This document shows, piece by piece, positions 5,482-41,955 of a stretch of DNA of 55,227 nucleotides (position 1 is its first letter; each line of letters starts with the position of its first letter). The position numbers and the translations under genes are program-made. The notes beneath the pieces are model-generated. The model ran no database searches. It was not told where the DNA came from and saw nothing but the letters and a program-made list of their open reading frames with translations. Source of the DNA: a virus (lineage: Duplodnaviria > Heunggongvirae > Uroviricota > Caudoviricetes); IMG/VR virus record IMGVR_UViG_2718218434_000004, positions 1 through 55,227 of that record; one strand, written 5' to 3'.

Positions 5482-5507
5482 TGCTGCTGTTGGTGCATAT
5501 GCTGACG

Positions 5508-7212: not shown

Positions 7213-7546
7213 GAGAACCTCCCGCTACAGTTGCGCCCATGTCATTAACCATGCTTTGCCATATCTCACGCCCGACGTCAGTCAATCCGTCCTTAGTGAC
7301 GCAACGCTCAAGAAGCTCGATCCCCACGGTTTCCCACTGCGGGTAGAACACTTTCATGGCTGCCAGTGTGTAGCTATCGATCAGGCTGCGAACGCCTTTT
7401 ACTCCATTAACGATTTCCACACGTACGGCCTCGCCGTCCGCATCAACCATGAAATAGTCCCCGCCGCTGGTGGAGGTAATGTGGTTATACAGTGCCGACG
7501 CATACTTATTTGCCAGCGCATTCAGTCGGAAATTTTTAGTAATCAT
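7205..7546 (-). CDS. hypothetical protein
   Basis: 113-aa ORF, overlapping gene junctions typical of phage operons. Confidence 0.4.
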   Translation of the reverse strand: MITKNFRLNALANKYASALYNHITSTSGGDYFMVDADGEAVRVEIVNGVKGVRSLIDSYTLAAMKVFYPQWETVGIELLERCVTKDGLTDVGREIWQSMVNDMGATVAGGSHA

Positions 7547-7556
7547 GGCTCCATCC

Positions 7557-8159: not shown

Positions 8160-8373
8160 GTTTCGCCTCGCCTGAATGATTCTGTAACTCATATTTGCCC
8201 AACAATTCGTCCGCTTCATGAATAGCTTCTGGTACGCCATTGAGCAGTGACATAACCGCGCCAATCATTAACTTGTCTCTGTTGCTGGGGCTGGCCCCTT
8301 CAAGCCAGAACCCTAAAACAGTCTGAACCTGTTCGATGCGACATTGCGCTTCAATGAGCTGGATGTTGGTCAT
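8152..8373 (-). CDS. hypothetical small protein
   Basis: 73-aa ORF in the same-strand array. Confidence 0.35.
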   Translation of the reverse strand: MTNIQLIEAQCRIEQVQTVLGFWLEGASPSNRDKLMIGAVMSLLNGVPEAIHEADELLGKYELQNHSGEAKHE

Positions 8374-8633
8374 TTCGCACTCTCCACATCGATTAAACCG
8401 ATATCTATCAGGGAGGTAACTTTTTGTAGCCAGCTATTGATTACTGTCGCCTGTTCCCCGCCCACCGAGGGAACAATCTCATTCATCACATGAACCAGAC
8501 CTGTGCGCGCTCTGGTAAGCCGTTCAGTCGCGCAATCTGCGGGAGTGAATGTGTCTGGATATGGCTCTTCACGCCCCAGCAATGATTCAATTTCCAGCTC
8601 ACACGGATGACGATAAATTAAGTTGATATTCAT
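8370..8633 (-). CDS. hypothetical small protein
   Basis: 87-aa ORF, 4-bp overlap with neighbours. Confidence 0.35.
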   Translation of the reverse strand: MNINLIYRHPCELEIESLLGREEPYPDTFTPADCATERLTRARTGLVHVMNEIVPSVGGEQATVINSWLQKVTSLIDIGLIDVESAK

Positions 8634-8824
8634 TTTTCACCACCAAGAATTACCAGCTCTGCACGGGCATCGTTAACCAAAGATGAGCACGCTTTAATCG
8701 CATCCACGACATCAGCAGCGTCCATTTCTTCAGCCGAAAGACTGACAGCAACCAGGACAGCCGCTGCTTGCTCGATTAATTGAAGTGCGGACGTAAGGCG
8801 AGGGGTATTAATTGAGTTATTCAT
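8630..8824 (-). CDS. hypothetical small protein
   Basis: Start set at MNNSINTPRL; overlaps the stop of the upstream gene. Confidence 0.35.
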   Translation of the reverse strand: MNNSINTPRLTSALQLIEQAAAVLVAVSLSAEEMDAADVVDAIKACSSLVNDARAELVILGGEK

Positions 8825-9035
8825 TGGTTGCCCCCGTTTTGCATGGCATTTGTCCACCTTCCAGCAGGAAATGAACGTCACGAACGGCGAGGTCCAATAT
8901 CGCGAGTAACGCCTTCAGTTTTTCGTCTCGTGAGGGAGAGTTGCTCACCAGAATGTCATTAATCACTTCTGTCAGTGTGATGATCTGGCTTGTGCGTTCG
9001 AGGGGGTCCATATGCACATCGTAGGTTTTAATCAT
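8817..9035 (-). CDS. hypothetical small protein (C-terminal part of the 355-aa ORF)
   Basis: Internal ATG at 9035 preceded by a GGAGGTGG RBS; downstream 72 aa look protein-like. Confidence 0.4.
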   Translation of the reverse strand: MIKTYDVHMDPLERTSQIITLTEVINDILVSNSPSRDEKLKALLAILDLAVRDVHFLLEGGQMPCKTGATNE

Positions 9036-9884
9036 GTGCCACCTCCATGCGGATACGACCAGCAAAAAAGCAGATGTGATCGCGCACCAGAGAACGGCGA
9101 GCATCGCGTTCAGACTCGGCAGCAATATGATGAATTTTGGCGGTAATTGTCGGGCAATCGCGGCGAACTGCGGCGATAATCCAGATAAATTGCGTTTTTT
9201 GGGTAGGGGTAGTAGCCAGCATGTGGCAGCCTCCTTCAGATAGCAGGTTACGCTACCACCGGAAACGCCAATTTCGCTGGTGGTAGCCCAGACAGGGTTG
9301 GCGTAACCGGCTCTGAAGGATACCGGCGCTTCCGAAGAAGCCCCCGCCTGAGCCACCATTGATTGACAAAGGCGCTGGATTATACACCAACGCCCAAAAA
9401 ATGGGTGAGTCAGACCTACGACATAAAAAAAGACGCTCGGCGCGTCATATGTCGCCTTCAGAATTTTCAGGACGCCAATCCCGGCACCCGTTTTATGAGG
9501 TGCCTTATAACCATAAACCGTGTTGCCGCATAACGGCAAGCTCTTTTTTATGGACTCCGAAAACTCACTATTGGAAGAACCAGAAGCACAGTACATCGCG
9601 CTCATTTCGTTAACGTCACGCGCGTGGACGAAGGTTTTTGTGGAGTCACTACACGAGCAGAGAAAGCCATCTACGACCAGAAATTCTCTGGCATAGCCGC
9701 TGACCTTCTCAACGCTAACACCATCGACCGTAATTTCTGACATAGTTAAGGCATCCGCTCCTACCACCAGCAAATGATAAACTTTGCTTGTATCTGCTGT
9801 ATTAATGTCTGACTTTGCTGTCATATTGCTGGATTTTGGCGACATACCAGCCAGTGAAAATATCTTCTTCTGGGCGGTTAGCAT
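9036..9884 (-). CDS. hypothetical protein, 3' boundary uncertain (possibly frameshifted)
   Basis: N-terminal about 160 aa of ORF 8817-9884 look protein-like; the central part is Cys/Trp/Pro-rich like out-of-frame translation. Confidence 0.25.
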
Positions 9885-10147
9885 TTGTTAACCTCCGCGA
9901 ACTCCTTCATGAAACGTGCCAGCGGTTGTACGCATGGCGATTGATACCCGTCGCGATAAAACGTCACTCGGTTGTGAGACACGCTTTCGACAGTAACGAG
10001 TGCTCCGTGGGCATCTTTGTAGCGTTTTTGAGGTTGTGGTGTTCCTGTCGGCTTAAACATGGACCGCCTCCAGACGCTTGGCGAGCCAGCGTTGCGACAG
10101 GCGGGTGAGTTCTCCTTTGCGCTGCTCATATTCCATGCCCATATCAA
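9878..10147 (-). CDS. hypothetical small protein
   Basis: 89-aa ORF between the antirepressor and the small-gene array. Confidence 0.3.
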   Translation of the reverse strand: MIWAWNMSSAKENSPACRNAGSPSVWRRSMFKPTGTPQPQKRYKDAHGALVTVESVSHNRVTFYRDGYQSPCVQPLARFMKEFAEVNKC

Positions 10148-10886
10148 TTAACGTGATATTGGTGCTTTCGAGATATGAGAGGTGCTCAAGCTGTTCTGCG
10201 TTCATATGGTCGCGAGGTTCGCCAGAATAGCCATTTATCCGCGCCCACTGCTTAGCAGTTAGCCCACCAAGAACGATACGAGAAATCATATTGCTCTCGT
10301 TTGTGTAGTGGTGTTGCTGCGTCGTTTTCCCCATCTCGGCACGGGCCATATTCAGCGCATCGCACATTGGCTTAAAGTTGTTTGCGGCACTGATACGGGC
10401 TTTTAGCTGGCGACGATAGCGGGCGGCGATTTCAGGCACGCTACGCTGTAATTCTTCCTCGCACTGGATGAAATAACGACGGATAGCGCGACCCTGATCA
10501 TTGCGTTCGATCATTGCCAGTTCTTTCGCCATTCCGACACTTAACAGATAGTCTTTGCCGGGTCTGCCAGACTGCTTAATCTTGCTGTAAGCCGCGCCAT
10601 TCGGGCTTTTCCCCAAATTTGGGGAAATTGTTTTATGGACTGAGTAATCGTGCCCAATGGTGAAGTCATATTCAGAGATGCGATCAGTGATCCATGTAGA
10701 GAAGTCTTTTCCCACGCCCAACGCTTTGTGTAACGCTTTTGCGCTAACAATATTGGTTTCACGCCCACCGATATGACCAGGAATAACCGGGACAATTGCG
10801 GCAAATTCATTACCGTTAATTGTGCCCAGAGAGGCGTTCAGATGAGGGGCAGCCTCAGAAATTAATCTGCTTTTTTCGATGTTCAT
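10053..10886 (-). CDS. phage antirepressor (AntA/AntB N-terminal plus KilA-C type)
   Basis: 277-aa ORF; sequence pattern consistent with Ant/KilAC antirepressors (recalled, not searched). Confidence 0.55.
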   Translation of the reverse strand: MNIEKSRLISEAAPHLNASLGTINGNEFAAIVPVIPGHIGGRETNIVSAKALHKALGVGKDFSTWITDRISEYDFTIGHDYSVHKTISPNLGKSPNGAAYSKIKQSGRPGKDYLLSVGMAKELAMIERNDQGRAIRRYFIQCEEELQRSVPEIAARYRRQLKARISAANNFKPMCDALNMARAEMGKTTQQHHYTNESNMISRIVLGGLTAKQWARINGYSGEPRDHMNAEQLEHLSYLESTNITLIDMGMEYEQRKGELTRLSQRWLAKRLEAVHV

Positions 10887-10898
10887 TTTCAGTCTCCG

Positions 10899-11330
10899 TT
10901 AGGCGGCGTTAAACGCGTCCGGGTAGAGTTTCAGAATGTCGGCAATTTCCTGCTGAGAAAGTCCGTTGTGATCATTTATGTTCGCAAGATGGTTAATATG
11001 AGTGATCACTTTCAGAACATCACCACGGCAGGAGAAACGGTAGCGAAGGTGTGTTCCGATACCATCAGGATTCTTTTCGTCGATACGCTCCAGAGTGATT
11101 CCAAGCTGGCGTTCTAACTCTGTTGCATAGTTACGACCAGAAGACAGACGGCAGTAGCGAAGAATGTCGTTTTCTGTCCATCCCTCTATACCAGTTCGCA
11201 GCATATAGACTCGGGCACGATGCTTTTTCGGTGTGCGCTTTGGTGCTTGAAGGGATTTTGTAAGGGGCGTAATATCAGATACGCGAATATCTGAATTAGC
11301 CGCCTGTAATGGGCGGTTTTTCTTTTCCAT
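10899..11330 (-). CDS. hypothetical protein (basic N-terminus, possible DNA-binding regulator)
   Basis: 143-aa ORF immediately downstream of alpA in the same operon. Confidence 0.4.
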   Translation of the reverse strand: MEKKNRPLQAANSDIRVSDITPLTKSLQAPKRTPKKHRARVYMLRTGIEGWTENDILRYCRLSSGRNYATELERQLGITLERIDEKNPDGIGTHLRYRFSCRGDVLKVITHINHLANINDHNGLSQQEIADILKLYPDAFNAA

Positions 11331-11533
11331 CAGGCCACCTCGTCTCTAGATTCTAATATACACTTCTCAATCCATTCATCTATTTCAGACTCAACAAAAG
11401 CAATAGCCCGACTTCCAATTTTTACCTGTTTAGGGAACCTCCCCTGACTAATAAGACGATAAATCCATGCTTTGCTATAACCAGTTCGCCTTTGAACTTC
11501 AGAGAGACGAATTAATGAATTGTAATTAGCCAT
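11330..11533 (-). CDS. alpA: AlpA-family transcriptional regulator / excisionase-like
   Basis: 67 aa, LIRLSEVQRRTGYSKAWIYRLISQGRFPKQVKIGSRAIAF; sits beside a P4-type integrase as in CP4-57. Confidence 0.65.
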   Translation of the reverse strand: MANYNSLIRLSEVQRRTGYSKAWIYRLISQGRFPKQVKIGSRAIAFVESEIDEWIEKCILESRDEVA

Positions 11534-11622
11534 TTATTAATATCCTGTACTAATGACGCAATAACCCCCTCCTGCAACGAATGGCGAGAGTTTTATTTGC
11601 GTCAAATGTCGAATACGCCAAA

Positions 11623-11662
11623 GACCACAATATGAAAAACATATTGCGGTCTTTTATAAAAG
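11623..11662 (+). terminator. hairpin plus T-run (terminator-like) in the int-alpA intergenic region
   Basis: GACCACAATATG-aaaaa-CATATTGCGGTC followed by TTTTATAAAAG; no plus-strand gene upstream. Confidence 0.3.
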
Positions 11663-11960
11663 ATAGTCAGATTGTTTTGGTTTGTTTGCTCCACAAGGGT
11701 AGAGCTACCCTGCATTTCGGCAGGATCACGCTATTAGGCGTGACATCCAGTAGTTTTAAAGAACAATTGCGCTTTGTCAGCGCCAAAGCCTGTTAAAGAA
11801 CATTCCGCTTTTCAGCAGCGTAGAAGGCTCAATACACCTTCGTTTATAAAAGAGCGATTGCCCTTCTCCAGGGCTAACTGTTAAATAGCAATCCTCTGTG
11901 AGTTTTTATCAATCTACTCCCCTATACTTTAGTAAACCTCTGTATACTTGTCCAGTTGTT

Positions 11961-13175
11961 TCATGCGTGTTTTTCAAACACCATATGCACCACATTTCCG
12001 CCATGCTCGAGAGAATCCATATAGTCGGCATACCATTGAAGCATCTCCCGCCTTCCATCCAGATATTGCGCATGGTTGTATGTGCCACGAATTGAGTTCT
12101 TATCAACGTGAGCGAGCTGAGTTTCTATCCACGCAGTGTTATAGCCCTGCTCATGCAAAATCGTACTCATAGTGTGCCGGAACCCATGACCAGTTACACG
12201 TCCAGCGTAGCCAATGCGCTTAAACACTTGGTTTATGCTGGCCTCACTCATTGTTTTCCTTGGATCATTGCGCCCGGGAAACATAAGAGGGTAATTGCCT
12301 GTTATTTCTCTAATCTTCCCAATAAGCGAAAGAGCCTGCTCAGACAATGGCACAATATGAGGCCGCCGCATTTTCATACGTGAAGCGGGTATCTCCCAGA
12401 TAGCCTTGTTGAAATCAATTTCATCCCATAATGCGCCACGTAGTTCGCCAGTTCGCAAGCCGGTGATAATCAGTAGACGAGCCGCCATAACAACCAATGC
12501 GCTTCCTGAGTAACTGGACAATGCCTTGAAAAAATCAGGTAATTCTTTGGCTGTAAGGAAAGGGTAATGATTAGATTCATGGCCTTGCATCGCGCTAGTA
12601 AGGTCTGGTGCAGGGTTATACTCTGCGCGACCAGTGACTATTGCATAGCGGAAAACTTCCCCGCACCGCTGCCTCACTTTTTTGGCTTTTTCTGTAGCAC
12701 CTCGCCCCTCGATGCGCCGCAGCACATTCAGAAGTTCAAGTGGTTTGATTTCGGCGATTGGTTTTTTGCCAATGTAAGGGAACACATCTTTGTTGAAGGC
12801 TTCGAGGATGTCTGAAGCATAACCAGCAGACCATTTTTTTAATTTGCTGCTGTGCCACTCAAGGGCAATATCTTTGAAGGTGTTGTTTAACTGCGTTTCC
12901 CGGGCAATCTTTTCCTCTCGTTTCGCTTCCATCGGATCGATACCACCAGCGATACCTCTTTTCGCATCTTCACGTTTTGCCCGAGCATCGGCTAGAGTAA
13001 CCTCAGGATACACACCTAGTGCCAATAGCTTCTCTTTACCAGCTACACGATATTTAAGTCGCCAGTATTTACCTCCATTAGGTTTTACCAAGAGATACAA
13101 ACCGCCACCATCGGCCAGCTTGTAAGCCTTCTCTTTTGGCTTGGCTGTGTCTATTTGACGGGCATTGAGTTTCAC
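11961..13175 (-). CDS. int: P4-family tyrosine integrase
   Basis: 404 aa; N-terminus MKLNARQIDTAKPKEKAYKLADGGGLYLLVKPNGGKYWRLKYR is the P4/CP4-57 integrase signature; C-terminal R..H..R..Y catalytic region. Confidence 0.85.
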   Translation of the reverse strand: MKLNARQIDTAKPKEKAYKLADGGGLYLLVKPNGGKYWRLKYRVAGKEKLLALGVYPEVTLADARAKREDAKRGIAGGIDPMEAKREEKIARETQLNNTFKDIALEWHSSKLKKWSAGYASDILEAFNKDVFPYIGKKPIAEIKPLELLNVLRRIEGRGATEKAKKVRQRCGEVFRYAIVTGRAEYNPAPDLTSAMQGHESNHYPFLTAKELPDFFKALSSYSGSALVVMAARLLIITGLRTGELRGALWDEIDFNKAIWEIPASRMKMRRPHIVPLSEQALSLIGKIREITGNYPLMFPGRNDPRKTMSEASINQVFKRIGYAGRVTGHGFRHTMSTILHEQGYNTAWIETQLAHVDKNSIRGTYNHAQYLDGRREMLQWYADYMDSLEHGGNVVHMVFEKHA

Positions 13176-13779: not shown

Positions 13780-15246
13780 CTATGCGCCTGGATTGGGTTC
13801 GATCATACTCAGCGTTTTTGCTATTTTCTTAATCTCATCATCATTATCCAAAAAAGAGGCGTCTTTTATTACCACAGTACGCTCTTCTTGTAATAGCTCA
13901 CCTATTTTTTCTTCTATAAAATCTAAGGTTGGCATTATAATCTGGATGTCTCGAGAAAAAGTAGTTTTTGCATCTTCTATACTGTTGAATCCATTATGTA
14001 TATGAGTGAATATTCTCTTTTTAAACTGTATGTCTTCTGGATTTCCCACTAACTGACTGAAATCTCCTTTCATAACTCTTTCGCTTGTTTCAAAGAGCTG
14101 TATTGCTATCGAGTCGATTAATTCCTTTTTGGACAGAGATGCTTGTTCATAAAATTTGGTGACTAACTCTGTTGGCAACTTTCTTGAGACGACTTTAATG
14201 GACAGTCTCTGAAATAGGTAAGGTGCCACCACGCCCACACTGAAAGGGTGAATCCTCCCTGGATTTAATAATTTTATTGTGACGTTTTCAAAAACTAGCT
14301 CATTGATTTTACTATTTATGAATTCCATTAAATACTTATCTAATGATAATGTTACCGACGCAACCGCTTCTATCACTTGTTTAAATGGCTCGCCTTTCAA
14401 GGATTTAAAAAACTCTTTGTTATAACCAAAGAAATCCACAAAACCTAAATTTATTCGATTTTCTTCTTTAGTATTTGAAATGCGAATTTGAAGTTGTTTT
14501 AAGTCTTCATCGGTCAAGTATTTTAAACCATAGTCATCAAGCGCGTTACGTATAACTTTATCTGCAGATTCTAAGTCGATTACAGTTTTTACATTAAAAA
14601 ACAATGATAACAATGAATCATACTTATGAACTCGCAAGGTTAAATCTGTTGCATTTGATGCGGTTACATTTATCCGTCTCAAAAGATCAATAACTTTACT
14701 AATTGGTAGGCTGTTTTCAAAAATTTTGAATGACTCGTATTCAGATACAACATCTTTTATATACTTACTGATAGTATCAGACTTTATTTCCACCTCAACT
14801 TCGGTTGAGTAAGAATGAATTAGTGAGTTTGTAGTTTCAGCGATGTCATTTGATACATACAACTTATATTCGAAACAATCAGGAGCGGGAAGCAAACTAT
14901 TATCAATAATGGAAAACAATAAAAATTTAATTATTTCTCTTAATGCTTGCGGTCTAGTTATTCTACCTTGCATTTTTTTACATTGTATTAAACCACTTAC
15001 AACACCGTTATGGTATAGCACGCAGTCGCGTCCTCTTTCAGAAACTCCTTGCATTAAAGATATTGAGGATATATTTTTATGCTTTCCATCTTCAATTTCG
15101 TTCTTTACTAACAAATAACATAGCAACTCAAATTCTCGATCACCTAATTCTGAAAAGGGAAGCAATCCGATACCAGAATCTATAGTCCATGGTCTATATC
15201 CTGATTGAGCCTCGATATTAATTTGTTCGTCACTGATTTTTTTCAC
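13780..15246 (-). CDS. Mrr-cat-like PD-(D/E)xK nuclease domain fused to a roughly 380-aa uncharacterised domain (candidate restriction/defence protein)
   Basis: AT-rich 488-aa ORF; N-terminal FELLCYLL...GVSERGRDCVLY...GLIQCKK matches the Mrr catalytic-core pattern. Confidence 0.6.
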   Translation of the reverse strand: MKKISDEQINIEAQSGYRPWTIDSGIGLLPFSELGDREFELLCYLLVKNEIEDGKHKNISSISLMQGVSERGRDCVLYHNGVVSGLIQCKKMQGRITRPQALREIIKFLLFSIIDNSLLPAPDCFEYKLYVSNDIAETTNSLIHSYSTEVEVEIKSDTISKYIKDVVSEYESFKIFENSLPISKVIDLLRRINVTASNATDLTLRVHKYDSLLSLFFNVKTVIDLESADKVIRNALDDYGLKYLTDEDLKQLQIRISNTKEENRINLGFVDFFGYNKEFFKSLKGEPFKQVIEAVASVTLSLDKYLMEFINSKINELVFENVTIKLLNPGRIHPFSVGVVAPYLFQRLSIKVVSRKLPTELVTKFYEQASLSKKELIDSIAIQLFETSERVMKGDFSQLVGNPEDIQFKKRIFTHIHNGFNSIEDAKTTFSRDIQIIMPTLDFIEEKIGELLQEERTVVIKDASFLDNDDEIKKIAKTLSMIEPNPGA

Positions 15247-15561
15247 TTAAATCTCCTTCTAATCTTATTGACCTACTCCCTACATTGTAACAGGGGATGA
15301 TGATAAGGTGTATCTTTCGAGCTATAAGCACGATAAATAAGTGATTAAAAATGACTCTTTAAACTATTTTAATTTAAAAAATTAATTGTTAGTTCTAATT
15401 ATGGTATGAGGGCATTTTCGGCATAGTTCTAACCATATACTTTGGTAAAAATGACTGTTACGGAACAGACCATAGTAATGCCTGCTATTGGCACGGAGCG
15501 GGCTGCCTGAGCGCCGTGGGGTCTGCAAACGGTAAGCATACCGATAACTATACGCTTGGCC

Positions 15562-15981
15562 TTAGTAACTTTTGCTCCCCTCAATAAATCCGCCATCTTT
15601 TATCGGACTGCAATGTCCTTCTTCATCAATCAGTTGCTCGTCTTTCAGGTAGGTATATCGATAGATAATTGAGCCATTATCCATCTCACCATTGGTTCGT
15701 TTCATTAGGAGAGTAAAATGTAACGGGCTGTCCCTATATCGAGCTATTCCATGAATATTGGCAAGTACCTCATATTGACGCTCAGGTGATAACCCTTTAA
15801 ATACATCGAGATATCCATGGAATGTTCCATAGAGTGAAGAAGTGTAGATCAGTCGCTGCTCTGGACCAGTAACTTTAAGAGTAATTTGTTCACCCGTATT
15901 ACAGGTTAGCTTGGCGGGAAATGTCTCAGCCTGAGCAGAAGAAATAGTCAAGCTTAAAATTATCAGGTAGCAATATTTCAT
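15562..15981 (-). CDS. secreted protein of unknown function
   Basis: Start at ATG 15981 (MKYCYLIILSLTISSAQA-ETF) gives a signal peptide; AT-rich, own intergenic regions. Confidence 0.5.
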   Translation of the reverse strand: MKYCYLIILSLTISSAQAETFPAKLTCNTGEQITLKVTGPEQRLIYTSSLYGTFHGYLDVFKGLSPERQYEVLANIHGIARYRDSPLHFTLLMKRTNGEMDNGSIIYRYTYLKDEQLIDEEGHCSPIKDGGFIEGSKSY

Positions 15982-16389
15982 GTGATTAGAATGTCCAAAA
16001 CTAACATGTATACTCGGGATTCTATAACTAGTTGGATGTAGACCCAAGATGTATTGGACTATTCTTCGGTTGTAGTTGGTCAAATCATATATTTTATGTC
16101 AGCAATGTCTACTTTTGGCACATAGCAGACCAGAGACACTGGCGTAAAGCCATGGAGGATCGGTGGGAGGAGGTAAAAATCCTCTCATGCAAAAAATACG
16201 CAAAATCGATAACAGTTGGAAATCATTCAATACTCGCACTATCGGAAGTTCACCAGCCAGTCGTAGCACGTTCTTGCATATGACGTGGCTACGGGTTTCG
16301 AGACCGACCCGATCATCAAACGAAACATAAAATTAGCTCACATTATGAGGAAAGGTATCTTTTTGCGCTATGTAAATTCAAAGGGTTAG

Positions 16390-17259
<870 letters not shown>

Positions 17260-17319: not shown

Positions 17320-17874
17320 TCATTTATCTCCGACCGGAAACTTCTTATACAGTGTCGATATACCAACATCATAGATGATCGCCACCTTCTGGCGAGGAAC
17401 GCCTGATGCAATTAATCGCCCGGCCTGCGCCCATTGTTCTGGTGTAAGTTTGGGACGACGTCCACCAATTCGTCCCTGTGCGCGAGCAGCTTCCAGTCCA
17501 GCTTTTGTTCGTTCAACAATCAGTTCTCGTTCCATTTCAGCCAGGGCACCCATGACATGAAAAAAGAAACGGCCCATTGGGGTACTGGTATCAATACTAT
17601 CAGTCAGGCTTCGGAAATTCACGCCACGCTGGCGCAACTCTTCTATCAGCGTAACAAGATGCCGCATACTGCGCCCTAACCTGTCCAGCTTCCAGACAAC
17701 CAGAGTGTCACCTGCCGATAATGTCCTGAGCAGTTTTTTCAGTCCGGGCCTTTCGGACTTCGTACCGCTTATCTTGTCTTCAAAAATCAGTTCACATCCT
17801 ACACAGTTCAACGCATTACGTTGTAGATCGGTGTTCTGGTCATTTGTTGATACGCGTACATAGCCAATAAGCAT
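17320..17874 (-). CDS. pin: DNA invertase, serine recombinase (Pin/Gin/Hin family)
   Basis: MLIGYVRVSTNDQNTDLQRNAL... resolvase N-terminus plus C-terminal HTH; 184 aa. Confidence 0.85.
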   Translation of the reverse strand: MLIGYVRVSTNDQNTDLQRNALNCVGCELIFEDKISGTKSERPGLKKLLRTLSAGDTLVVWKLDRLGRSMRHLVTLIEELRQRGVNFRSLTDSIDTSTPMGRFFFHVMGALAEMERELIVERTKAGLEAARAQGRIGGRRPKLTPEQWAQAGRLIASGVPRQKVAIIYDVGISTLYKKFPVGDK

Positions 17875-17900
17875 GGTGGATCTCCCTGACAAAAGCAGGA

Positions 17901-18473
17901 ATGATGCCATTTGCTCGTTATTTCTGCATTTTCATAAACGTTGGTTTGGGAGAAGGTGCTCCAGCTATTGGCGTTCCGTTCTTCTGGCCGTCCGCCGCAA
18001 TGCCAAATACTGTAATCGACAGTTGGTCCAGTATGGTGTTTTTGAAGTTCAACGGCGCGAAATTCTCTGCCACTGATTACCCTGTGCTGGCGAAAGTGTT
18101 TCCGGCGCTAGCATTACCTGACGCACGGGGTGATTTCATTCGTATCTGGGATGATGGGCGCGGGATTGATGTCGGACGTACCCTACTTTCAGGGCAATCA
18201 CACACAATTATGGATCATGCACACAATATGGAATTGTGGACGGGGGACGGGCTTGCCGCAGGAAGTGCACGGGAAGGAGTAAACCCAGGAATACTGGCTA
18301 CATACGGTGACGGGGGAATAGTTAAAACGGACGAACCCGGTCTTAAGGTGCCTTCCTCACTACGAGCTCTTAGCTCTCGTAGTGTTAAACGTTATGGTGA
18401 AATTAGTGGAAATGTAGATACAGAAACCCGTCCACGAAATATTGCATTTAACTTTCTGGTGAGGGCTAAATAA
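17901..18473 (+). CDS. alternative tail-fibre C-terminal segment (silent orientation)
   Basis: ORF begins at the crossover site and runs opposite to the active tail-fibre gene. Confidence 0.5.
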   Translation: MMPFARYFCIFINVGLGEGAPAIGVPFFWPSAAMPNTVIDSWSSMVFLKFNGAKFSATDYPVLAKVFPALALPDARGDFIRIWDDGRGIDVGRTLLSGQSHTIMDHAHNMELWTGDGLAAGSAREGVNPGILATYGDGGIVKTDEPGLKVPSSLRALSSRSVKRYGEISGNVDTETRPRNIAFNFLVRAK

Positions 18474-22701: not shown

Positions 22702-23780
22702 CAGAACGGGTCCTCCTGTACTCTGGTTTTTTTCTTTTTCCGCGCGCCGGGGGCTTCGGGTTCAGGCAGATAAGCATCAGGTGGGCCGACACGGATTTCC
22801 GTCAGGGTGCCATTCTGGTCCTGAGTAAACGTGACTTCCGAGACAAGCAGTTCGGTATTGTCGAAACCACAGACCGGATCGAAGACAATCACCCGCTGGT
22901 TGGGCTGCCACAGCGTACCGTTACCCTGTCGCCAGCCCTGCACCACATAGGTGGTTTCATCCGTCCGCGCCGCCCGTTGTCGGGCTTCAAAGTCAGCACG
23001 CGCAATACAGCCTGCCCCCGTAGCCTGCCCTGTCTGCCTGATATACATCGGACGGTAACGGGCAATAAATGCATCCTCTGTGCGGGCCCGCAGCACGGTG
23101 GTGGTGGCCTCACCGAAATCATCGTCGTTTCCGGCACGCTGCCCCGCCACCTGGTAAACTGAAAACCGCTCCCGGATACTCTTCTCCGTATCACAGGAAA
23201 GGATGTTTTCCCCAAGTACCAGCGCGGTATGTGCCCGCGTTGAGCCAATACCACCAATCACCAGCCTGCCGTGCGGGTCGTCATAAGCCAGCGCCTGCTG
23301 CTGACCGAGTATTTTGTTGATCACCTCGATCACCGTTTCACCGTGATCAGGCTGGACATCCGGAATAACACCCGACGGCGCATCGCTGTTCACCACCTCA
23401 ATGCCGAAAGGCGCAGCAAGCGCCTGCGCAATCTGTACCAGCGATCGTCCGTTAAACTGTGTCGGTTCGGCTGCACAGTCAATCAGGTCAGCAGTCAGAC
23501 TACGTCCGGCAATACCGGTGCTGACCGAACGGGCATCGTAACGAACGGGGGTCGCCTCCACCCAGCCGGTGATCACCAGCTCATCACCAATCAGCACTTC
23601 CACTTTTGAACCATTTTTAATGCGCGGCTGAAGCGTGGTGATACCCTCATCTCCCGGCCACTGGCGGGTGATCTCCACGCTGAAATCCCGCGCCAGCCGT
23701 TCAATACCGGCACCGATGCGCACCGATGTCCAGCCATTCCACTCCCGGCCATTTACCCGTAGCGTGACATTGTCGTTCAT
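22701..23780 (-). CDS. baseplate hub / Mu P-like tail protein (gp44)
   Basis: 359-aa ORF directly downstream of the DNA circulation gene. Confidence 0.5.
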   Translation of the reverse strand: MNDNVTLRVNGREWNGWTSVRIGAGIERLARDFSVEITRQWPGDEGITTLQPRIKNGSKVEVLIGDELVITGWVEATPVRYDARSVSTGIAGRSLTADLIDCAAEPTQFNGRSLVQIAQALAAPFGIEVVNSDAPSGVIPDVQPDHGETVIEVINKILGQQQALAYDDPHGRLVIGGIGSTRAHTALVLGENILSCDTEKSIRERFSVYQVAGQRAGNDDDFGEATTTVLRARTEDAFIARYRPMYIRQTGQATGAGCIARADFEARQRAARTDETTYVVQGWRQGNGTLWQPNQRVIVFDPVCGFDNTELLVSEVTFTQDQNGTLTEIRVGPPDAYLPEPEAPGARKKKKTRVQEDPF

Positions 23781-25111
23781 TGCACTGGCACCTTCAGAGG
23801 GATTACCGGCACAAAGCCGGGATGCGTAATGGCATTACGCCGGATAATGTCCGCGTCACGCGCCGCGTTATCAAACCAGGTCGCCGCCAGCACCAGCGCG
23901 GGTAAAACCTCATCCGGCGTGCGCTGAATGATCCGAGCAGACTGTTCAAGGCGCGTGTTGATATCCGCATTCAGATCTGCTTTCACCCGGCGCAGAGCCA
24001 GAAACAGCGCATCACTGGTTGTACGGGACAACTCCTTATCAATTGCCGTATTCAGTGTGTCGCGAATGTCGGTCAGTTCTTCCCACGTTGGCAGGTCAAC
24101 CGTGTTTTTCACCGCCGGTGCATTGTTCAGCACCGGATGCGTGACGGCAGGCCAGCCGGAGCTCTGCGCGGGTGTTGTTGACTGCCCCACTGCGGCATTC
24201 TGCATCACCGCAGAAGTTGTTGGCGCAGGCAATCGGGTAACGGCATACGCCGCTTCGCTGATTGCAGTCGTACGAAGGGTGCTGGCAACCATGTTACGCT
24301 GCTGCGTCGCTGTGGCGGTGGTTTTACTGTCCGTTTTCCAGACGCCGCGCGGTTGCAAATCGCTGCCGAGGCTGACACCAGAAAGCGTTTTGATCATGGT
24401 GACCAGGTCGCTGGCGTTACCATAAAGGCGTTTCCCGGTACGCCACATTTTCTGCACCTGCTCAACGAAATTTTTGCCTGACGATGGCGGCGGCAGAAGT
24501 ACCGAGATATCCCCCTGCAACAGCCTGGCGGCATCCGATACGGCAGAATCCACCACTTTCATCGCATCAGAAACATACCCCAGCATTATGCTGGCATTAC
24601 CGATAACGTCGTTCTGCACGAAATCCGCCACACCATCGATACTGAAACCGCTGAAGCTGTCACTGATGCAGTCATCCAGTGCAGAACAGGATGACATCAG
24701 CGTCAGCGCCGTCGCCGCACCTGATGTGGGGTAAGAGAGTTCTCCTGCTTCGACAAACTTCAGGTCAAAGCGGACAATACGCCCTTCACTTTTCGATGTG
24801 CTGACCCGAACTTCCCCGTCAACACAGACTTTCAGCTCACCATATGTCGGGTGGACAAGCGTGCCGGGACCGGGTTTATTCAGCGCTTCAATCAGGCGAT
24901 CGCGCTGGTCAAAGCAGTCATCTCCCACCACATAAGCTGTGATGGACGGGCGGAAAGTGACTTTTCCCAGATCTTCGGTATAGGGCTTGTCGCGGTTCGG
25001 GTATTCATGTGTTTCCACACGGCGACCGGTTCCCGCACTTTCTTCTTCAACCTTAAACGGCACACCTCGAAATGACGCATCCTGAAGCCTGTCTTTCCAC
25101 GTCATATACAC
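23777..25111 (-). CDS. DNA circulation protein (Mu gp43-like)
   Basis: N-terminus MYMTWKDRLQDASFRGVPF matches the DNA circulation N-terminal pattern. Confidence 0.6.
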   Translation of the reverse strand: MYMTWKDRLQDASFRGVPFKVEEESAGTGRRVETHEYPNRDKPYTEDLGKVTFRPSITAYVVGDDCFDQRDRLIEALNKPGPGTLVHPTYGELKVCVDGEVRVSTSKSEGRIVRFDLKFVEAGELSYPTSGAATALTLMSSCSALDDCISDSFSGFSIDGVADFVQNDVIGNASIMLGYVSDAMKVVDSAVSDAARLLQGDISVLLPPPSSGKNFVEQVQKMWRTGKRLYGNASDLVTMIKTLSGVSLGSDLQPRGVWKTDSKTTATATQQRNMVASTLRTTAISEAAYAVTRLPAPTTSAVMQNAAVGQSTTPAQSSGWPAVTHPVLNNAPAVKNTVDLPTWEELTDIRDTLNTAIDKELSRTTSDALFLALRRVKADLNADINTRLEQSARIIQRTPDEVLPALVLAATWFDNAARDADIIRRNAITHPGFVPVIPLKVPVQ

Positions 25112-25116
25112 TCCGA

Positions 25117-25150
25117 AAATAAAAAAGCCACCTATTAGAAGGTGGCCTTG
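25117..25150 (-). terminator. rho-independent terminator downstream of the moron gene
   Basis: Minus strand: GGCCACC-ttctaata-GGTGGC followed by TTTTTTATTTT. Confidence 0.5.
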
Positions 25151-25166
25151 TAATGAATTTTATTAA

Positions 25167-25697
25167 TTAGCGAGTCAGAAACAACGAATCTTTATACTTT
25201 TGCTGTTGTTCATTTAAATACTTAGCTGTTTCATCGCTGGCAAATGGAAATATTACCGTATTTTTAGGCATGGTAATTTCTTTTTTGTCCAGCGTCAGAG
25301 TAAACATAGGAACATACTGAGCAGAGTAACGCACCGCAGAAACGAGCTCTAGTTTAGACTCTTCAATAACACTTAAATTATCCAGGCTAACTTTCTCTTC
25401 ATCTTTTTTCTTTGACGCATTTAAAGTTTTTATTACTTTATTTAATTTCTCCTGAAAATCCTCCTTAAAGTTTTCAGGATTGCCGTCGACAACAAGAATC
25501 TGTTCACCCTGATTATCTGGAAAAATAATCTTTGCACTTATCAATTTATTTTCTTTATAAACATCACCAAGTTTTATGGCTCCTCCAGATAACTGAATAA
25601 TATGTTCATCTTTAAAGGAGATGTTGCCAGAGATTATGAGAGATGAAAAAATAGCCGCTGCTCCAAGAATTACACTTGCTGTGATATAGCCTTTCAT
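25167..25697 (-). CDS. moron: membrane-anchored or secreted 176-aa protein of unknown function
   Basis: AT-rich ORF inserted between tape measure and DNA circulation genes; hydrophobic N-terminus MKGYITASVILGAAAIFSSLIISG. Confidence 0.55.
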   Translation of the reverse strand: MKGYITASVILGAAAIFSSLIISGNISFKDEHIIQLSGGAIKLGDVYKENKLISAKIIFPDNQGEQILVVDGNPENFKEDFQEKLNKVIKTLNASKKKDEEKVSLDNLSVIEESKLELVSAVRYSAQYVPMFTLTLDKKEITMPKNTVIFPFASDETAKYLNEQQQKYKDSLFLTR

Positions 25698-25788
25698 TTT
25701 TCGCCTATTAACATTTTTCTAAATGTGCATTAATTCTATCACTCTATTTATGACTTACAACCAGCAATACCTGTGAGGGGAATCCTGG

Positions 25789-27621
25789 CTACCAAAATCG
25801 GGTATAGCCAACATCGTGATTTATATCAATGCCACTGGAGCGTGTTTCCGTAACCCGCATATCTGGTGGCATATTTATAAATGATACCTTGATCTCACCA
25901 TCAACTTTTGGCGCGGTAGCTTTATTAATCATGAAGGGATTCGAGCCTGTGGCATCGGAGGCGTTGTTTGCCTGAGCCGGATCCACCGCCGGATAAGGAG
26001 TGTATCCCCGTGCCGGTATTCCCGTCCCATAAGCATCATAAGCACCCGCGCCCCACTGCGCCGAGTTAATGGCATCGACCGTGTCACCGGAACTGTCGGT
26101 AAACCATTCAATAATCGGCTTCAGCTTATCCCACATATCCTGAAACCACTTAACAACCGGTCCCCAGTTATTGATCACCATCCCCAGCGGCGACCAGGCA
26201 AAAACCTTCTTCAGAAGTTCCCAGCCAGCCTCAAAATAAGGACTAATGGTTTCCCAGAGTTTCTTAAAATAAGGTCCGACAACATCCCAGTTAGTGATAA
26301 TTAATCCCGCAGCCAGGGCAATCGCCGTCGCAATCATGCCAATCGGCGTCATCGACATGATCCTGCTGACGATACTGATGGCACTGCCCACGCCCATCAA
26401 TCCCAGTTTCAGAATCGCAAGACCGGCAGCAAGCCCGACGACGCCGCGAATAACCCGGGGATTTTCATCCGCAAACTTCGTGAATTTCTCCCCCAACTCC
26501 CCCAGCCATTGCGTGATATTTTTGGCGTCACCAGAAAATGCGCCGCCAATAGCCGCAAGGCCGTTAGTTGCGGTCCCCGTCATTGCCTCCCACAGGTTGG
26601 ACAGCGTACCAAGCTGGGCCTGAACACGTTTATTCAGGCTGGCCTGTTTATTCATCTTCTGCTGGATCTGATCGTAGCCATCCTTTCCTTTATCGATTAG
26701 TGCATTGACCACCTGAAGGGTTTCGGCATCATCACCAAATATTGCCTTAAGTACACCTGTTCGCTTAACGTCGGTCAGTTTTCGCAGCTTTGCCAGTTGC
26801 CTGAACATGTTATCAAGACCGCCAAAACTTCCTTTGCCGTCAGTAAAATCGAGCTGTACCCCGAGTTTCTGGCGGGCCATGATTTTATTGACGTCCCTGA
26901 TTTTCTTAACGCTTAATCCGGACTGGATAACTTTTCGCAGGGCATTACCTGCCGACTCCCCGTTCATCCCCATCTGATCCATCATGACGCTGATGGGGGC
27001 AAGGCTCTGTGCAGCCTGAAGACCGTCCTTGTTCACCATCTTCAGAACAGAACTGGTTTTAGTGAAGAAGGACAACATGTTGGTATCGTCAACGCCCAGA
27101 TAAAACGCCTTCTGGATAGTGTCGAACAGCCCCATCATGTCTTCTGACGCCGTTCCGGTAGCATCCTGCATCTTTGCAGCAAACTCAGCAGCCGCTTCCG
27201 GTGTTTTTTTCAGTTGTACCGCAAGATAAGCTGTCGCTTTACCCACACCGCCAAGAATGTTTTCTGCCGGGATCCCCTGACGCACCAGCATCTGCATCAT
27301 GTTCTGGAAATCAGCCGTTGTACCGGGTAGCTGGTTACCCAGGCCAATAGCCAGTTTATTGATGTCCTGAAAGCTCTTTCCAACCTCGCCATTCGCATCC
27401 ATCATGGCGACTTTCAGCCCGGTGGCGGCGTTTTCCTGATCGGCATAAGATTTCAGGGAAAGCGTCAGACCCGCTGCCAGTCCGCCACCAAGCGCCAGCC
27501 CACCCTGTGACGCTTCTTCCGCCTGGCGTTTAAATCCCCGGATTTTCTTTTGCATTTTCGACAGCGCGGGAGAAAGCCTGTCGACACCGGTGATCAACGC
27601 CTTAAGCTCAAATTCAGCCAT
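25789..27621 (-). CDS. tail tape measure protein
   Basis: 610-aa helical ORF with Gly-rich hydrophobic segments, placed after the chaperone pair. Confidence 0.75.
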   Translation of the reverse strand: MAEFELKALITGVDRLSPALSKMQKKIRGFKRQAEEASQGGLALGGGLAAGLTLSLKSYADQENAATGLKVAMMDANGEVGKSFQDINKLAIGLGNQLPGTTADFQNMMQMLVRQGIPAENILGGVGKATAYLAVQLKKTPEAAAEFAAKMQDATGTASEDMMGLFDTIQKAFYLGVDDTNMLSFFTKTSSVLKMVNKDGLQAAQSLAPISVMMDQMGMNGESAGNALRKVIQSGLSVKKIRDVNKIMARQKLGVQLDFTDGKGSFGGLDNMFRQLAKLRKLTDVKRTGVLKAIFGDDAETLQVVNALIDKGKDGYDQIQQKMNKQASLNKRVQAQLGTLSNLWEAMTGTATNGLAAIGGAFSGDAKNITQWLGELGEKFTKFADENPRVIRGVVGLAAGLAILKLGLMGVGSAISIVSRIMSMTPIGMIATAIALAAGLIITNWDVVGPYFKKLWETISPYFEAGWELLKKVFAWSPLGMVINNWGPVVKWFQDMWDKLKPIIEWFTDSSGDTVDAINSAQWGAGAYDAYGTGIPARGYTPYPAVDPAQANNASDATGSNPFMINKATAPKVDGEIKVSFINMPPDMRVTETRSSGIDINHDVGYTRFW

Positions 27622-41196: not shown

Positions 41197-41955
41197 TTAT
41201 CTCGTCACTTTTCTTAATTGCGCCTCAGCATATGCTTCTTCCTGCCAGCACTTTGTAACCAGTTTATCAATGACATCTGCATATCCTTTGTACCACTGAT
41301 AATCCGTCAGGTCTGGTACCAGCTTCTGGACATGATGCCGCGCCAGTGTGGTTGGTAAACGGCTAAACCGGTTTCCATTGCAACGCCCACAAATCTTATA
41401 AACAGGCGTGCCATGAAGCCGGGTCCTTTTTTCATCCAGGACAATACCTTTACCCTTACACCCTCTGCACGCTGTGCTGACTTCTCCCTTACCATGACAA
41501 TGCTGACATAGTTCCTTCACCCACTCCTCCTTGATAACAGATTCACCGCTTCTGGAGTGTTTCAACACTTCGCGCAATACATTATGAAATCCAGTACCAG
41601 CACAATGCTCACAGCGAGCCTTACTTGCCGCAGACCTGGAATAATCAGCAAAGGCAAAATTCACAAGGTAAGGGATGATCTGTAACCGGGTTTCTTCACT
41701 CAATTTATTCAATGTCGGGTTATCCAGTGCCATCGCGTAATTGAGCAGACCTTCAATCGCAAACTGAGGATCCTGAACACCAACTTTTGCCAGGAATAAG
41801 GCAAAACCCAGTGGTGCTTTCGACTGCACCATCCCCTGCGCAGCCATCACATCCGTAATCGTTAAACCACCAGAGCCTGTCGCCGGTGCGTCATCGCTCA
41901 ATTTTGGAGATTTTGGGGAGTAATATTTTGGTAAGGCTTCAAGGTTCATGCTCAT
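41197..41955 (-). CDS. antitermination protein Q
   Basis: CEHCAGTGF...CQHCHGKGE...CRGCKGKG zinc-binding motifs; position just before PR'/lysis. Confidence 0.75.
   Translation of the reverse strand: MSMNLEALPKYYSPKSPKLSDDAPATGSGGLTITDVMAAQGMVQSKAPLGFALFLAKVGVQDPQFAIEGLLNYAMALDNPTLNKLSEETRLQIIPYLVNFAFADYSRSAASKARCEHCAGTGFHNVLREVLKHSRSGESVIKEEWVKELCQHCHGKGEVSTACRGCKGKGIVLDEKRTRLHGTPVYKICGRCNGNRFSRLPTTLARHHVQKLVPDLTDYQWYKGYADVIDKLVTKCWQEEAYAEAQLRKVTR

What the first reader, a model, noticed from the sequence alone, without database searches (positions are those of the whole stretch)
25117..25697. Moron with its own terminator inserted between tape measure and DNA circulation genes
An AT-rich 176-aa protein with an N-terminal membrane anchor or signal interrupts an otherwise contiguous Mu-type tail operon and is followed by a canonical terminator (25117-25150). 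This is the classic moron signature and suggests a lysogen-expressed envelope protein, for example superinfection exclusion.
Basis: partly seen in the sequence, partly recalled or inferred. Interest (0 to 1): 0.5.

Follow-up and report, generated by a model that had tools for sequence, protein, structure and literature searches.

The report
Swappable envelope-protein gene in prophage tail operon
A small AT-rich gene for a membrane-anchored periplasmic protein sits in a swappable one-gene slot inside the tail operon of an SfV-like E. coli prophage; it is a textbook "moron", most plausibly a shield against other phages, but its function is untested.

Summary
A 176-aa ORF (25167..25697, minus strand, GC 0.34 against about 0.55 in the flanks) lies between the tape-measure gene and the DNA-circularization/baseplate-hub gene. 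A strong hairpin plus T-run follows it (25149..25114).

The host element is an SfV/SfI/SfII-type lambdoid prophage with a Q antiterminator, integrated at tRNA-Thr next to proA.

Among 5,426 complete E. coli genomes:
- 1,092 carry this tail region.
- 532 have an empty 60-bp gap.
- 178 carry this gene, at 99% identity or more.
- 85 and 79 carry two unrelated cassettes, and further alleles exist.

Phages SfV, SfI and SfII have the empty slot, so the gene is dispensable for tail assembly.

The protein has an N-terminal membrane helix and a roughly 150-aa domain predicted to be periplasmic. The model is confident (pLDDT 92), has no PDB neighbour, and resembles one phage lipoprotein. The gene is under purifying selection (dN/dS about 0.08) and matches only PHROG 5485, of unknown function. 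One alternative occupant of the slot belongs to a PHROG named "superinfection exclusion Sie-like".

Moron status is well supported. The independent promoter, expression in the lysogen and an exclusion function are inferred, not shown.

The parts
25789..27621 (-). Tail tape-measure protein gene (610 aa); upstream conserved flank of the slot
   Evidence: PF10145 E=1.3e-26; phrog_28 and phrog_17727 'tail length tape measure protein'. Homology with the other alleles runs to within a few codons of its stop codon.
25106..25788 (-). Variable slot: 683 bp here against 60 bp in the empty allele. It holds the whole cassette.
   Evidence: Junction alignment of six alleles. The query spans 1,701 bp in carriers and 1,080 bp in empty-slot genomes. 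No flanking direct repeats were found.
25733..25760 (-). Sigma-70 promoter-like site: TTGTAA, 16-nt spacer, TAGAAT with TG (extended -10). It ends 35 nt upstream of the ATG. It is a candidate moron promoter and is unverified.
   Evidence: 9/12 match, but 3 sites were found against 3.1 expected in shuffles. Matches at the equivalent position exist in L011 and L010 but not in L006 or L012.
25167..25697 (-). Cargo gene: 176-aa protein with an N-terminal membrane helix (about residues 2-23) and a roughly 150-aa alpha/beta domain predicted to be periplasmic. It has no cysteine.
   Evidence: ORF; GC 0.343; phrog_5485, unknown function, E=3.8e-108; no Pfam, NCBIfam or PADLOC match; AlphaFold2 pLDDT 91.9; dN/dS 0.04-0.17; charge bias favours N-in/C-out in 55 of 60 family members.
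25124..25149 (-). Stem-loop of the intrinsic terminator (10-bp stem, 6-nt loop)
   Evidence: -15.6 kcal/mol, z = -4.7. Hairpins at the same position in L001 (empty), L003, L005, L006 and L012 and in L011 have different stem sequences.
25114..25123 (-). T-rich tail of the terminator. It runs directly into the GGAG ribosome-binding site of the downstream gene. This is where homology with all other same-strand alleles resumes.
23777..25105 (-). DNA-circularization / baseplate-hub protein gene (Mu gpN-like); downstream conserved flank
   Evidence: PF07157 E=3.8e-34; phrog_184 'baseplate hub'. RefSeq calls the 442-aa form that starts at this ATG. The ORF listing extends the ORF to a GTG at 25111.
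41197..41955 (-). Q-type late antiterminator of the prophage (context). It would let late transcription read through the slot terminator.
   Evidence: PF03589 Antitermination protein Q, E=1.1e-53. Read-through itself is inferred from lambdoid biology.

Best explanation
The cassette at 25106..25788 is a single-gene moron. It occupies a recombinationally swappable slot between the tape-measure and DNA-circularization genes of an SfV-like lambdoid prophage with a Mu-type contractile tail.

Its product is a bitopic inner-membrane protein, or possibly a signal-peptide-cleaved periplasmic protein. The roughly 150-aa alpha/beta domain faces the periplasm.

The most likely role is superinfection exclusion. 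The protein would be made in the lysogen from a weak promoter of its own, with the transcript ending at the slot terminator. It would also be made late in infection, when Q-modified RNA polymerase reads through. It would sit at the periplasmic face of the inner membrane and interfere with an incoming phage's tail-tip, tape-measure or DNA-conduit step, so that the DNA is not delivered.

Shown here:
- the insert and its polymorphism;
- the foreign base composition;
- the terminator;
- purifying selection;
- the predicted membrane anchor and fold.

Inferred:
- the promoter and expression in the lysogen;
- the periplasmic orientation;
- the exclusion activity and its target.
For: 1. Presence/absence. 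Of 5,426 complete E. coli genomes, 1,092 have the flanks, 532 have the empty 60-bp gap, and 178 have this gene at 99% identity or more. Another 85 and 79 carry two unrelated cassettes, and a bPH_1 gene and a lipoprotein gene were also seen.

2. Phages SfV, SfI and SfII carry the empty slot, so the gene is not needed to build the tail.

3. GC is 0.34 against 0.51-0.56 in the flanks. All five cargo alleles have GC of 0.32-0.42.

4. No terminator lies between the tape-measure gene and the cargo gene, and a strong one follows the cargo gene. The prophage has a Q antiterminator.

5. It is a real gene. dN/dS is 0.078 between two orthologs where dS is not saturated. The family has 77 clusters at 50% identity among 1.8 billion representative proteins.

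6. Orthologs at 41-56% identity occupy the same slot in Leclercia-type and Edwardsiella prophages.

7. In Lelliottia, a prophage relic next to icd keeps only the last 31 tape-measure codons, the intact gene and its hairpin. The gene has outlived the phage there and must be transcribed on its own if it is expressed at all.

8. Envelope targeting. The model has a helix at residues 2-23 (pLDDT 91.9). Positive charges lie on the N-terminal side in 55 of 60 family members. The only significant fold match is a phage protein named 'Lipoprotein', from Pseudomonas phage ventosus (Foldseek E=5.5e-7).

9. The company it keeps. Four of the five cargo alleles seen are envelope-targeted: a signal peptide, an LLGGC lipobox, and two membrane anchors. 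The OB-fold occupant matches phrog_8545 'superinfection exclusion Sie-like' at E=1.5e-49. That occupant lies antisense to the tail operon, so it cannot depend on late transcription.

10. Precedent. The HK97 gp15 moron lies next to the tape-measure gene. It is an inner-membrane protein that blocks genome entry in a way that depends on the incoming phage's tail (PMC3594210).
Against: - There is no experimental or expression evidence of any kind.
- The promoter call is no better than chance by count. It is missing at the equivalent position in 2 of 4 orthologous loci.
- The gene has the same orientation as the late operon, with no terminator upstream. It is therefore certainly co-transcribed late, and a purely lytic-cycle role cannot be excluded.
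- The terminator is not specific to the insert.
- The 'Sie-like' label of the neighbouring allele is a database name, not a test, and that protein is unrelated to this one (hhalign probability about 1%).
- Distant family members in Pseudomonas lie in integrase/resolvase islands, not next to tail genes. The link with the tape-measure gene may therefore be incidental.
Confidence: 0.42

Rival explanations
1. It is a lysogenic-conversion envelope factor unrelated to phage defence, in the manner of lambda Bor or Lom. The periplasmic or membrane protein would change envelope properties such as stress tolerance, serum resistance or colonisation.
For: The evidence for a moron and for envelope targeting is the same as above. 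The gene is retained as the sole survivor of a decayed prophage in Lelliottia, which fits any host-beneficial function. No defence family matches. Bor and Lom are cited as moron precedents in PMC3594210.
Against: There is no similarity to any known virulence or fitness family. The slot also holds a family named Sie-like. The carriers come from very mixed hosts and sources, including human, pig, chicken, panda, wastewater and sediment, so no niche signal is apparent.
Confidence: 0.2
2. It is a late-expressed, non-essential phage accessory protein with no independent expression. It would be transcribed only as part of the Q-dependent tail operon. Possible roles are protecting the infected cell from secondary injection or lysis-from-without, or modulating the envelope around the time of assembly and lysis.
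For: The gene has the same strand as the tail genes, lies 91 bp after the tape-measure stop, and has no intervening terminator. The promoter evidence is at chance level. The terminator also exists in the empty slot, so it need not serve this gene.
Against: The Lelliottia relic keeps an intact ORF with no late operon around it, and dN/dS against a prophage-borne ortholog is 0.039, though dS is saturated. Another occupant of the slot is antisense to the operon. Low GC and allele swapping are typical of lysogen-expressed morons (PMC3594210).
Confidence: 0.15
3. It is a membrane-acting abortive-infection or defence effector. On sensing infection it would damage or depolarise the inner membrane, rather than passively blocking DNA entry.
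For: It is a single-pass membrane protein carried on mobile elements. Distant homologs sit beside an Mrr-type nuclease and resolvases in integrative islands. The same prophage carries a known defence gene, PD-T4-3, at another cargo site.
Against: It has a single helix with a large soluble domain and no oligomeric pore features. No PADLOC model matches. There is no partner sensor gene in the one-gene cassette.
Confidence: 0.1
4. It is a non-functional passenger or a mis-called ORF in AT-rich spacer DNA.
For: No known domain was found.
Against: dN/dS is 0.04-0.17. Full-length homologs exist down to about 20% identity in 77 clusters. The fold prediction is confident. The E. coli cluster alone has 524 member sequences.
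Confidence: 0.03

Closest known systems
HK97 gp15 moron (superinfection exclusion; Cumby et al. 2012, summarised in PMC3594210)
   Same: Both are one-gene cassettes inside the tail operon of a Q-regulated lambdoid phage, directly next to the tape-measure gene. Both have deviant base composition and a flanking terminator, and both products insert into the inner membrane. gp15 blocks genome entry in a way that depends on the incoming phage's tail.
   Different: There is no detectable sequence relationship: no Pfam hit of any kind, including to a YebO-type family. This gene lies downstream, not upstream, of the tape-measure gene. It carries a roughly 150-aa folded domain predicted to be periplasmic. 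Its function is untested, and the tail here is contractile (Mu-type) rather than a siphovirus tail.
P2 (Z/fun, old/tin) and P4 cargo hotspots (Rousset et al. 2022; described in bioRxiv 10.1101/2024.10.15.618418 and PMC13586616)
   Same: Conserved structural flanks bracket a position where unrelated accessory genes replace one another between closely related prophages. One P2 hotspot also lies among tail genes.
   Different: Here the cargo is always a single small gene, mostly envelope-targeted. None of the five alleles tested matches a PADLOC defence model. I found no paper describing this slot in SfV-like phages.
Envelope-anchored Sie lipoproteins: Cor (phi80/N15), Llp (T5), Ltp (TP-J34)
   Same: These are small prophage-encoded proteins tethered to a membrane, with the functional domain outside the cytoplasm. 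Ltp is the prototype of a family of surface-exposed Sie lipoproteins (PMC3952083). That Ltp acts on the tape-measure protein is from my own knowledge. The only significant fold match of this protein is a phage 'Lipoprotein'.
   Different: This protein has no lipobox and no cysteine at all. It has no sequence similarity to these proteins, and its anchor is a membrane helix or signal peptide.
phrog_8545 'superinfection exclusion Sie-like' (membrane-anchored OB-fold, PF12869)
   Same: It occupies exactly the same slot in 79 E. coli genomes, has an N-terminal membrane anchor, and is AT-rich.
   Different: It is unrelated in sequence (hhalign probability about 1%), lies on the opposite strand, and has a different fold class.

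Membership tests
Moron (Juhala/Hendrix definition, as restated in PMC3594210) | Extra DNA present in one phage and absent from otherwise closely related phages | tested here: met
   The slot is empty in SfV, SfI and SfII and in 532 E. coli genomes. The insert is present in 178 genomes.
Moron (Juhala/Hendrix definition, as restated in PMC3594210) | Base composition different from the surrounding genes | tested here: met
   GC 0.343 against 0.514 and 0.556 in the flanking genes.
Moron (Juhala/Hendrix definition, as restated in PMC3594210) | Own terminator downstream | tested here: met
   Hairpin at 25149..25124 plus a T-run, -15.6 kcal/mol, z = -4.7. Caveat: an equivalent terminator is present in the empty slot.
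Moron (Juhala/Hendrix definition, as restated in PMC3594210) | Own promoter upstream | tested here: inconclusive
   One 9/12 match with an extended -10 at 25760..25733, but the count is no higher than in shuffles. It is conserved in position in 2 of 4 orthologous loci.
Moron (Juhala/Hendrix definition, as restated in PMC3594210) | Expressed from the repressed prophage | not testable with these tools
   Needs RNA-seq, 5'-RACE or a reporter fusion in a lysogen.
PHROG 5485 (unknown function) | Full-length profile match | tested here: met
   E=3.8e-108, residues 1-176 against profile positions 1-176. The distant Pseudomonas homolog also matches, E=4e-14.
HK97 gp15 / YebO-like Sie proteins | Sequence similarity to the YebO-type family | tested here: not met
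   The Pfam scan at E<=1 returned no family for this protein. The gp15 sequence itself was not available for a direct comparison.
Sie lipoproteins (Cor / Llp / Ltp type) | Lipobox with an invariant cysteine after the signal sequence | tested here: not met
   The protein contains no cysteine. A lipobox-like motif occurs in 1 of 60 family members.
Superinfection exclusion proteins in general (functional class) | Blocks infection by a superinfecting phage after adsorption, independently of repressor immunity | not testable with these tools
   Requires plating, adsorption and DNA-entry assays.
Known anti-phage defence systems (PADLOC-DB v2) | Match to a defence-system protein model | tested here: not met
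   0 families at E<=1 for this protein and for the four alternative cargo proteins.

The most novel reading that the evidence does not exclude
The gap between the tape-measure and gpN genes of SfV-like phages may be a previously undescribed landing pad, bounded by a terminator, for single-gene 'entry-shield' cassettes. At least five unrelated envelope proteins would swap there by flank recombination, each giving the lysogen a different exclusion specificity. The PHROG 5485 family (77 clusters, a fold with no PDB neighbour, anchored by a membrane helix here and as a lipoprotein in a Pseudomonas phage) would then be a new structural class of exclusion protein, acting on the tape-measure or gpN injection machinery at the inner membrane.
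Probability: 0.25. Interest if true: 0.6.

Novelty: new member of a known kind. Interest (0 to 1): 0.4.

Why it matters
Prophage morons are a main source of strain-to-strain differences in phage susceptibility, but most remain "hypothetical proteins". This case offers a cleanly delimited, natural allelic series in hundreds of E. coli genomes: an empty slot, this gene, and at least four unrelated alternatives, all between identical flanks. Culturable relatives (SfV, SfI, SfII, SKA5) are available as test phages.

If this protein excludes phages, it would add a new fold to the short list of injection-blocking proteins. It would also give a handle on how contractile-tail phages cross the inner membrane. 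If it does not, the slot is still a useful marker of cassette exchange inside a structural operon. On present evidence the finding is a sound but conventional moron call.

Tried and rejected
- **Other structure searches.** A PDB sequence-profile search returned only chance hits at E=0.26.
- **Phage collection.** blastn (distant mode) and tblastn of the cassette against 50,697 phage records found no match. No sequenced, isolated phage in that collection carries this gene.
- **Related loci.** The search for related loci failed with the deep alignment. With the shallow alignment it gave a single Edwardsiella locus.
- **RNA families.** Rfam on 24800-26000 gave only sub-threshold leader-peptide hits overlapping the terminator (E of 0.03 or higher, far below gathering scores). 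I rejected these as hairpin look-alikes.
- **Insertion signature.** No direct repeats flank the cassette. There is no sign of transposon-type or integron-type insertion, so flank recombination is the simplest route.
- **Are the cargo alleles diverged copies of one family?** No. hhalign probabilities were below 2%.
- **phrog_15137 'endonuclease'** (E=0.014). I dismissed it as chance. The family's nearly invariant residues are G, L, E and Y, which does not suggest a catalytic site.
- **Literature.** Searches by protein accession and by topic found no paper on this gene or this slot. The Cumby 2012 primary paper is not held.
- **Promoters of the other alleles.** Scans were mostly negative, so they give no support for a shared promoter architecture.

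Full report
**What is at the coordinates**

On the minus strand, a 176-aa ORF runs from 25697 to 25167. It lies 91 bp downstream of a 610-aa tape-measure gene (25789..27621; PF10145, E=1e-26). It lies 61 bp upstream of the ATG (25105) of a DNA-circularization/baseplate-hub gene (PF07157, E=4e-34; phrog_184).

GC content is 0.343 for the ORF, against 0.514 and 0.556 for its neighbours. The 300-nt profile drops to 0.32-0.37 only across about 25100-25850.

A 10-bp stem with 5 G-C pairs and a 6-nt loop sits at 25149..25124 and is followed by TTTATTTT. It folds at -15.6 kcal/mol, z = -4.7 against shuffles. No terminator-like site lies between the tape-measure stop and the ORF.

**What the surrounding element is**

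The window holds a lambdoid prophage with these features:
- an integrase (52606..53769) next to tRNA-Thr(CGT) (53784..53859) and a proA-like gene;
- an S24-type repressor and a CII-like regulator;
- a Q antiterminator (41197..41955, PF03589, E=1e-53);
- a holin and an endolysin;
- terminase and head genes;
- a Mu-type contractile tail;
- a Pin-like invertase at the tail-fibre end.

By megablast, the tape-measure to gpN segment is 96-97% identical to Shigella phages SfV, SfI and SfII.

**Is the gene an insert? Yes**

In SfV, SfI and SfII the same query spans 3,225 bp instead of 3,845 bp, and the two tail genes are adjacent. The counts among 5,426 complete E. coli genomes are:

| Slot state | Genomes |
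|---|---|
| Flanks present | 1,092 |
| Empty allele (60-bp gap sequence; 511 of 535 records at 99% identity or more) | 532 |
| This cassette (179 of 180 records at 99% identity or more) | 178 |
| Unrelated 164-aa signal-peptide protein | 85 |
| Membrane-anchored OB-fold protein, encoded on the opposite strand | 79 |

A bPH_1 domain protein and a 225-aa lipoprotein (LLGGC lipobox) also turn up in the slot. About one sixth of the flank hits match only the gpN gene. The example I inspected has an SfIV-type tape-measure gene joined to gpN by a 24-bp gap, with no slot at all.

All five cargo alleles are AT-rich, with GC of 0.32-0.42. The three I compared with this family by profile (the 164-aa, OB-fold and lipoprotein alleles) are unrelated to it.

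In the junction alignment, homology runs almost to the tape-measure stop codon. In the same-strand alleles it resumes in the T-run of the terminator, which abuts the GGAG ribosome-binding site of gpN. No direct repeats flank the cassette. Exchange by homologous recombination in the conserved flanks is therefore the simplest mechanism. Carriers also share a flank haplotype: their flanks are 98-100% identical to the window, against 93-95% for empty-slot genomes.

**A correction about the terminator**

The empty allele's 60-bp gap itself contains a hairpin plus T-run (CCCACTCCGGTGGG, then TTTTTT; -18.7 kcal/mol). The SfII GenBank record annotates it as a putative rho-independent terminator.

Every same-strand allele and every ortholog examined has a hairpin at this position, but the stem sequences differ. 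In the antisense OB-fold allele the hairpin instead sits beside the tape-measure stop codon.

The terminator is thus a standing feature of the slot. A cassette inserted upstream of it automatically becomes terminator-bounded. Because the phage has a Q antiterminator, late transcription should ignore the terminator. This last point is an inference from lambdoid biology.

**Promoter**

A site reading TTGTAA, 16-nt spacer, TAGAAT with an extended -10 TG lies at 25760..25733, ending 35 nt upstream of the ATG. However, the region contains no more such matches than shuffled sequence does (3 found, 3.1 expected).

Matches at the equivalent position exist in two orthologous loci (L011, L010) and are absent in two others (L006, L012).

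Two pieces of indirect evidence favour independent transcription of slot cargo:
- The OB-fold allele is antisense to the tail operon.
- A Lelliottia amnigena chromosome carries a relic downstream of icd. It consists of only the last 31 tape-measure codons (tblastn E=1e-5), an intact 174-aa ortholog and its hairpin, with no other phage genes.

**The protein**

No Pfam, NCBIfam or PADLOC family matches. The protein is a full-length member of phrog_5485, whose function is unknown (E=4e-108).

*Relatives*
- Close relatives are 99% identical within E. coli; that cluster has 524 member sequences.
- Relatives at 52-58% identity occur in Leclercia, Lelliottia and related sequences.
- An Edwardsiella relative is 41% identical.
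- All five contigs inspected in the Leclercia-type group (L006-L009, L011) have the gene in the same slot between the tape-measure and gpN genes, and ORF order suggests the same in Edwardsiella. The Lelliottia relic is the one exception.
- An exhaustive profile search of 1.8 billion representative proteins finds 77 clusters, most of them about 175 aa and full-length.
- The two distant members inspected (about 23% identity; one named Pseudomonas sp. by its source, one from a metagenome) lie in small integrase/resolvase islands, one of them beside an Mrr-type nuclease. They are not in tail operons.

*Selection*
- Purifying selection is clear. dN/dS is 0.078 where dS is unsaturated, and 0.04-0.17 in the other estimable pairs.
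- Between the window and the two Leclercia-type prophage loci compared, the cargo protein is more diverged (53-56% identity) than gpN (69%).

*Structure*
- With the 60-sequence alignment, AlphaFold2 gives a confident model: pLDDT 91.9, pTM 0.76.
- It has a helix at residues 2-23, four strands (32-72), a helix (74-93), a hairpin of two long strands (114-143) and a C-terminal helix (149-171).
- Foldseek against viral models gives one significant match, a 144-aa protein named 'Lipoprotein' from Pseudomonas phage ventosus (E=5.5e-7, TM-score 0.67 normalised to the target).

*Topology*
- The hydrophobic segment is followed by a net-negative stretch and preceded by positive charge in 55 of 60 family members. 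This favours N-in/C-out.
- The residue at the would-be signal-peptidase -1 position varies (G, D, N or E among close homologs). An uncleaved signal anchor is therefore somewhat more likely than a cleaved signal peptide. Either way the folded domain should be periplasmic.
- The protein has no cysteine, so no lipobox and no disulfides.

*Conserved residues*
- The nearly invariant residues are G39, L43, G44, E49, Y124 and L134. They do not look like a catalytic site. I infer a binding module rather than an enzyme.

**Most likely mechanism, and how sure I am**

I am confident, at roughly 0.9, that this is a moron-type cassette in a polymorphic slot. I am fairly confident, at about 0.8, that its product is an envelope protein with a periplasmic domain.

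The function is inferred. The best-supported reading is superinfection exclusion at the inner-membrane step of DNA delivery. Four things point that way:
- The closest architectural precedent is the HK97 gp15 moron. It is adjacent to the tape-measure gene, inserts into the inner membrane, and blocks genome entry in a way that depends on the incoming phage's tail (PMC3594210).
- Most alternative occupants of the same slot are envelope-targeted, and one belongs to a PHROG named 'superinfection exclusion Sie-like' (E=1.5e-49).
- The only structural relative is a phage lipoprotein, the class to which Cor, Llp and Ltp belong.
- The gene is retained in a decayed prophage.

I put this at about 0.4. 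The rivals are:
- a Bor/Lom-like conversion factor (0.2);
- a purely late, non-essential phage function (0.15);
- a membrane abortive-infection effector (0.1);
- a junk ORF (0.03, effectively excluded).

**Comparison with known systems, and novelty**

The element meets the compositional, presence/absence and terminator criteria of a moron. The promoter criterion is inconclusive and the expression criterion is untestable here.

It is not a member of the gp15/YebO, lipoprotein-Sie, OB-fold Sie-like or PADLOC families.

The hotspot logic resembles the P2 and P4 cargo hotspots. It differs in holding single small genes, mostly envelope-targeted, inside the tail operon. I found no paper describing this slot or this protein.

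I classify it as a new member of a known kind. It is a good experimental candidate but not a surprise to a phage biologist.

Noticed in passing
window 16435..17259 (+): A 274-aa GIY-YIG (LEM-3-like) protein matches the PADLOC model PD-T4-3 at E=2.7e-140. It lies just outside the Pin-like invertase (17320..17910), at the tail-fibre end of the prophage. This is roughly the end that, from memory, carries the gtr serotype-conversion genes in SfV-type phages. The same prophage thus carries a recognised defence gene at a second cargo site.
   Followed up: partly
window 2636..13175 (-): A second mobile element lies in tandem with the prophage. It has a P4-type integrase with an arm-binding domain (11961..13175), a primase with zinc-ribbon and Toprim domains (5508..6857), an Ash-family protein (8817..9884) and an AntA-domain protein (10053..10886). 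The last also weakly matches PADLOC PDC-S22 (E=4e-11). This looks like a P4/CP4-like satellite or island.
   Followed up: partly
window 13780..16083 (-): Two ORFs of 488 aa and 173 aa lie between the two mobile elements. They have no Pfam or PADLOC match and may be further cargo.
   Followed up: no
window 53784..53859 (-): tRNA-Thr (anticodon CGT) lies between the prophage integrase and a proA-like gene (53974..55227). From memory, this matches the thrW attachment site used by SfV-type phages.
   Followed up: partly
L010 5809..6561 (Lelliottia amnigena, downstream of icd): A prophage relic consists only of the last 31 codons of a tape-measure gene, an intact 174-aa ortholog of the cargo gene and its terminator hairpin, set among ordinary chromosomal genes. 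It suggests the gene is kept after the phage has decayed.
   Followed up: yes
L001 1007..1066 and L017 1539..1577 (empty-slot alleles): An intrinsic-terminator hairpin sits in the middle of the tail operon even when no cargo is present, and is nearly invariant in 511 of 535 E. coli records. Why a structural operon keeps it is unexplained. It could be a scar of cargo loss, an insulator in the lysogen, or an mRNA-stability element.
   Followed up: partly
L013 5401..5943 and L016 5774..5974 (loci of distant homologs: one named Pseudomonas sp. by its source, one from a metagenome): Distant homologs (about 23% identity) of the cargo protein lie in integrase/resolvase islands, one of them next to an Mrr-type nuclease. 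Each is preceded by a different small unknown gene on the same strand. No conserved partner gene is apparent.
   Followed up: partly
E. coli NZ_AP041809.1 1361228..1362704 (hit H37): One carrier matches in two pieces covering 87% of the query. The matched span is about 220 bp shorter than the corresponding stretch of the query, so this is probably an internal deletion variant. A 140-aa truncated form (P0004) also exists in the protein database.
   Followed up: no
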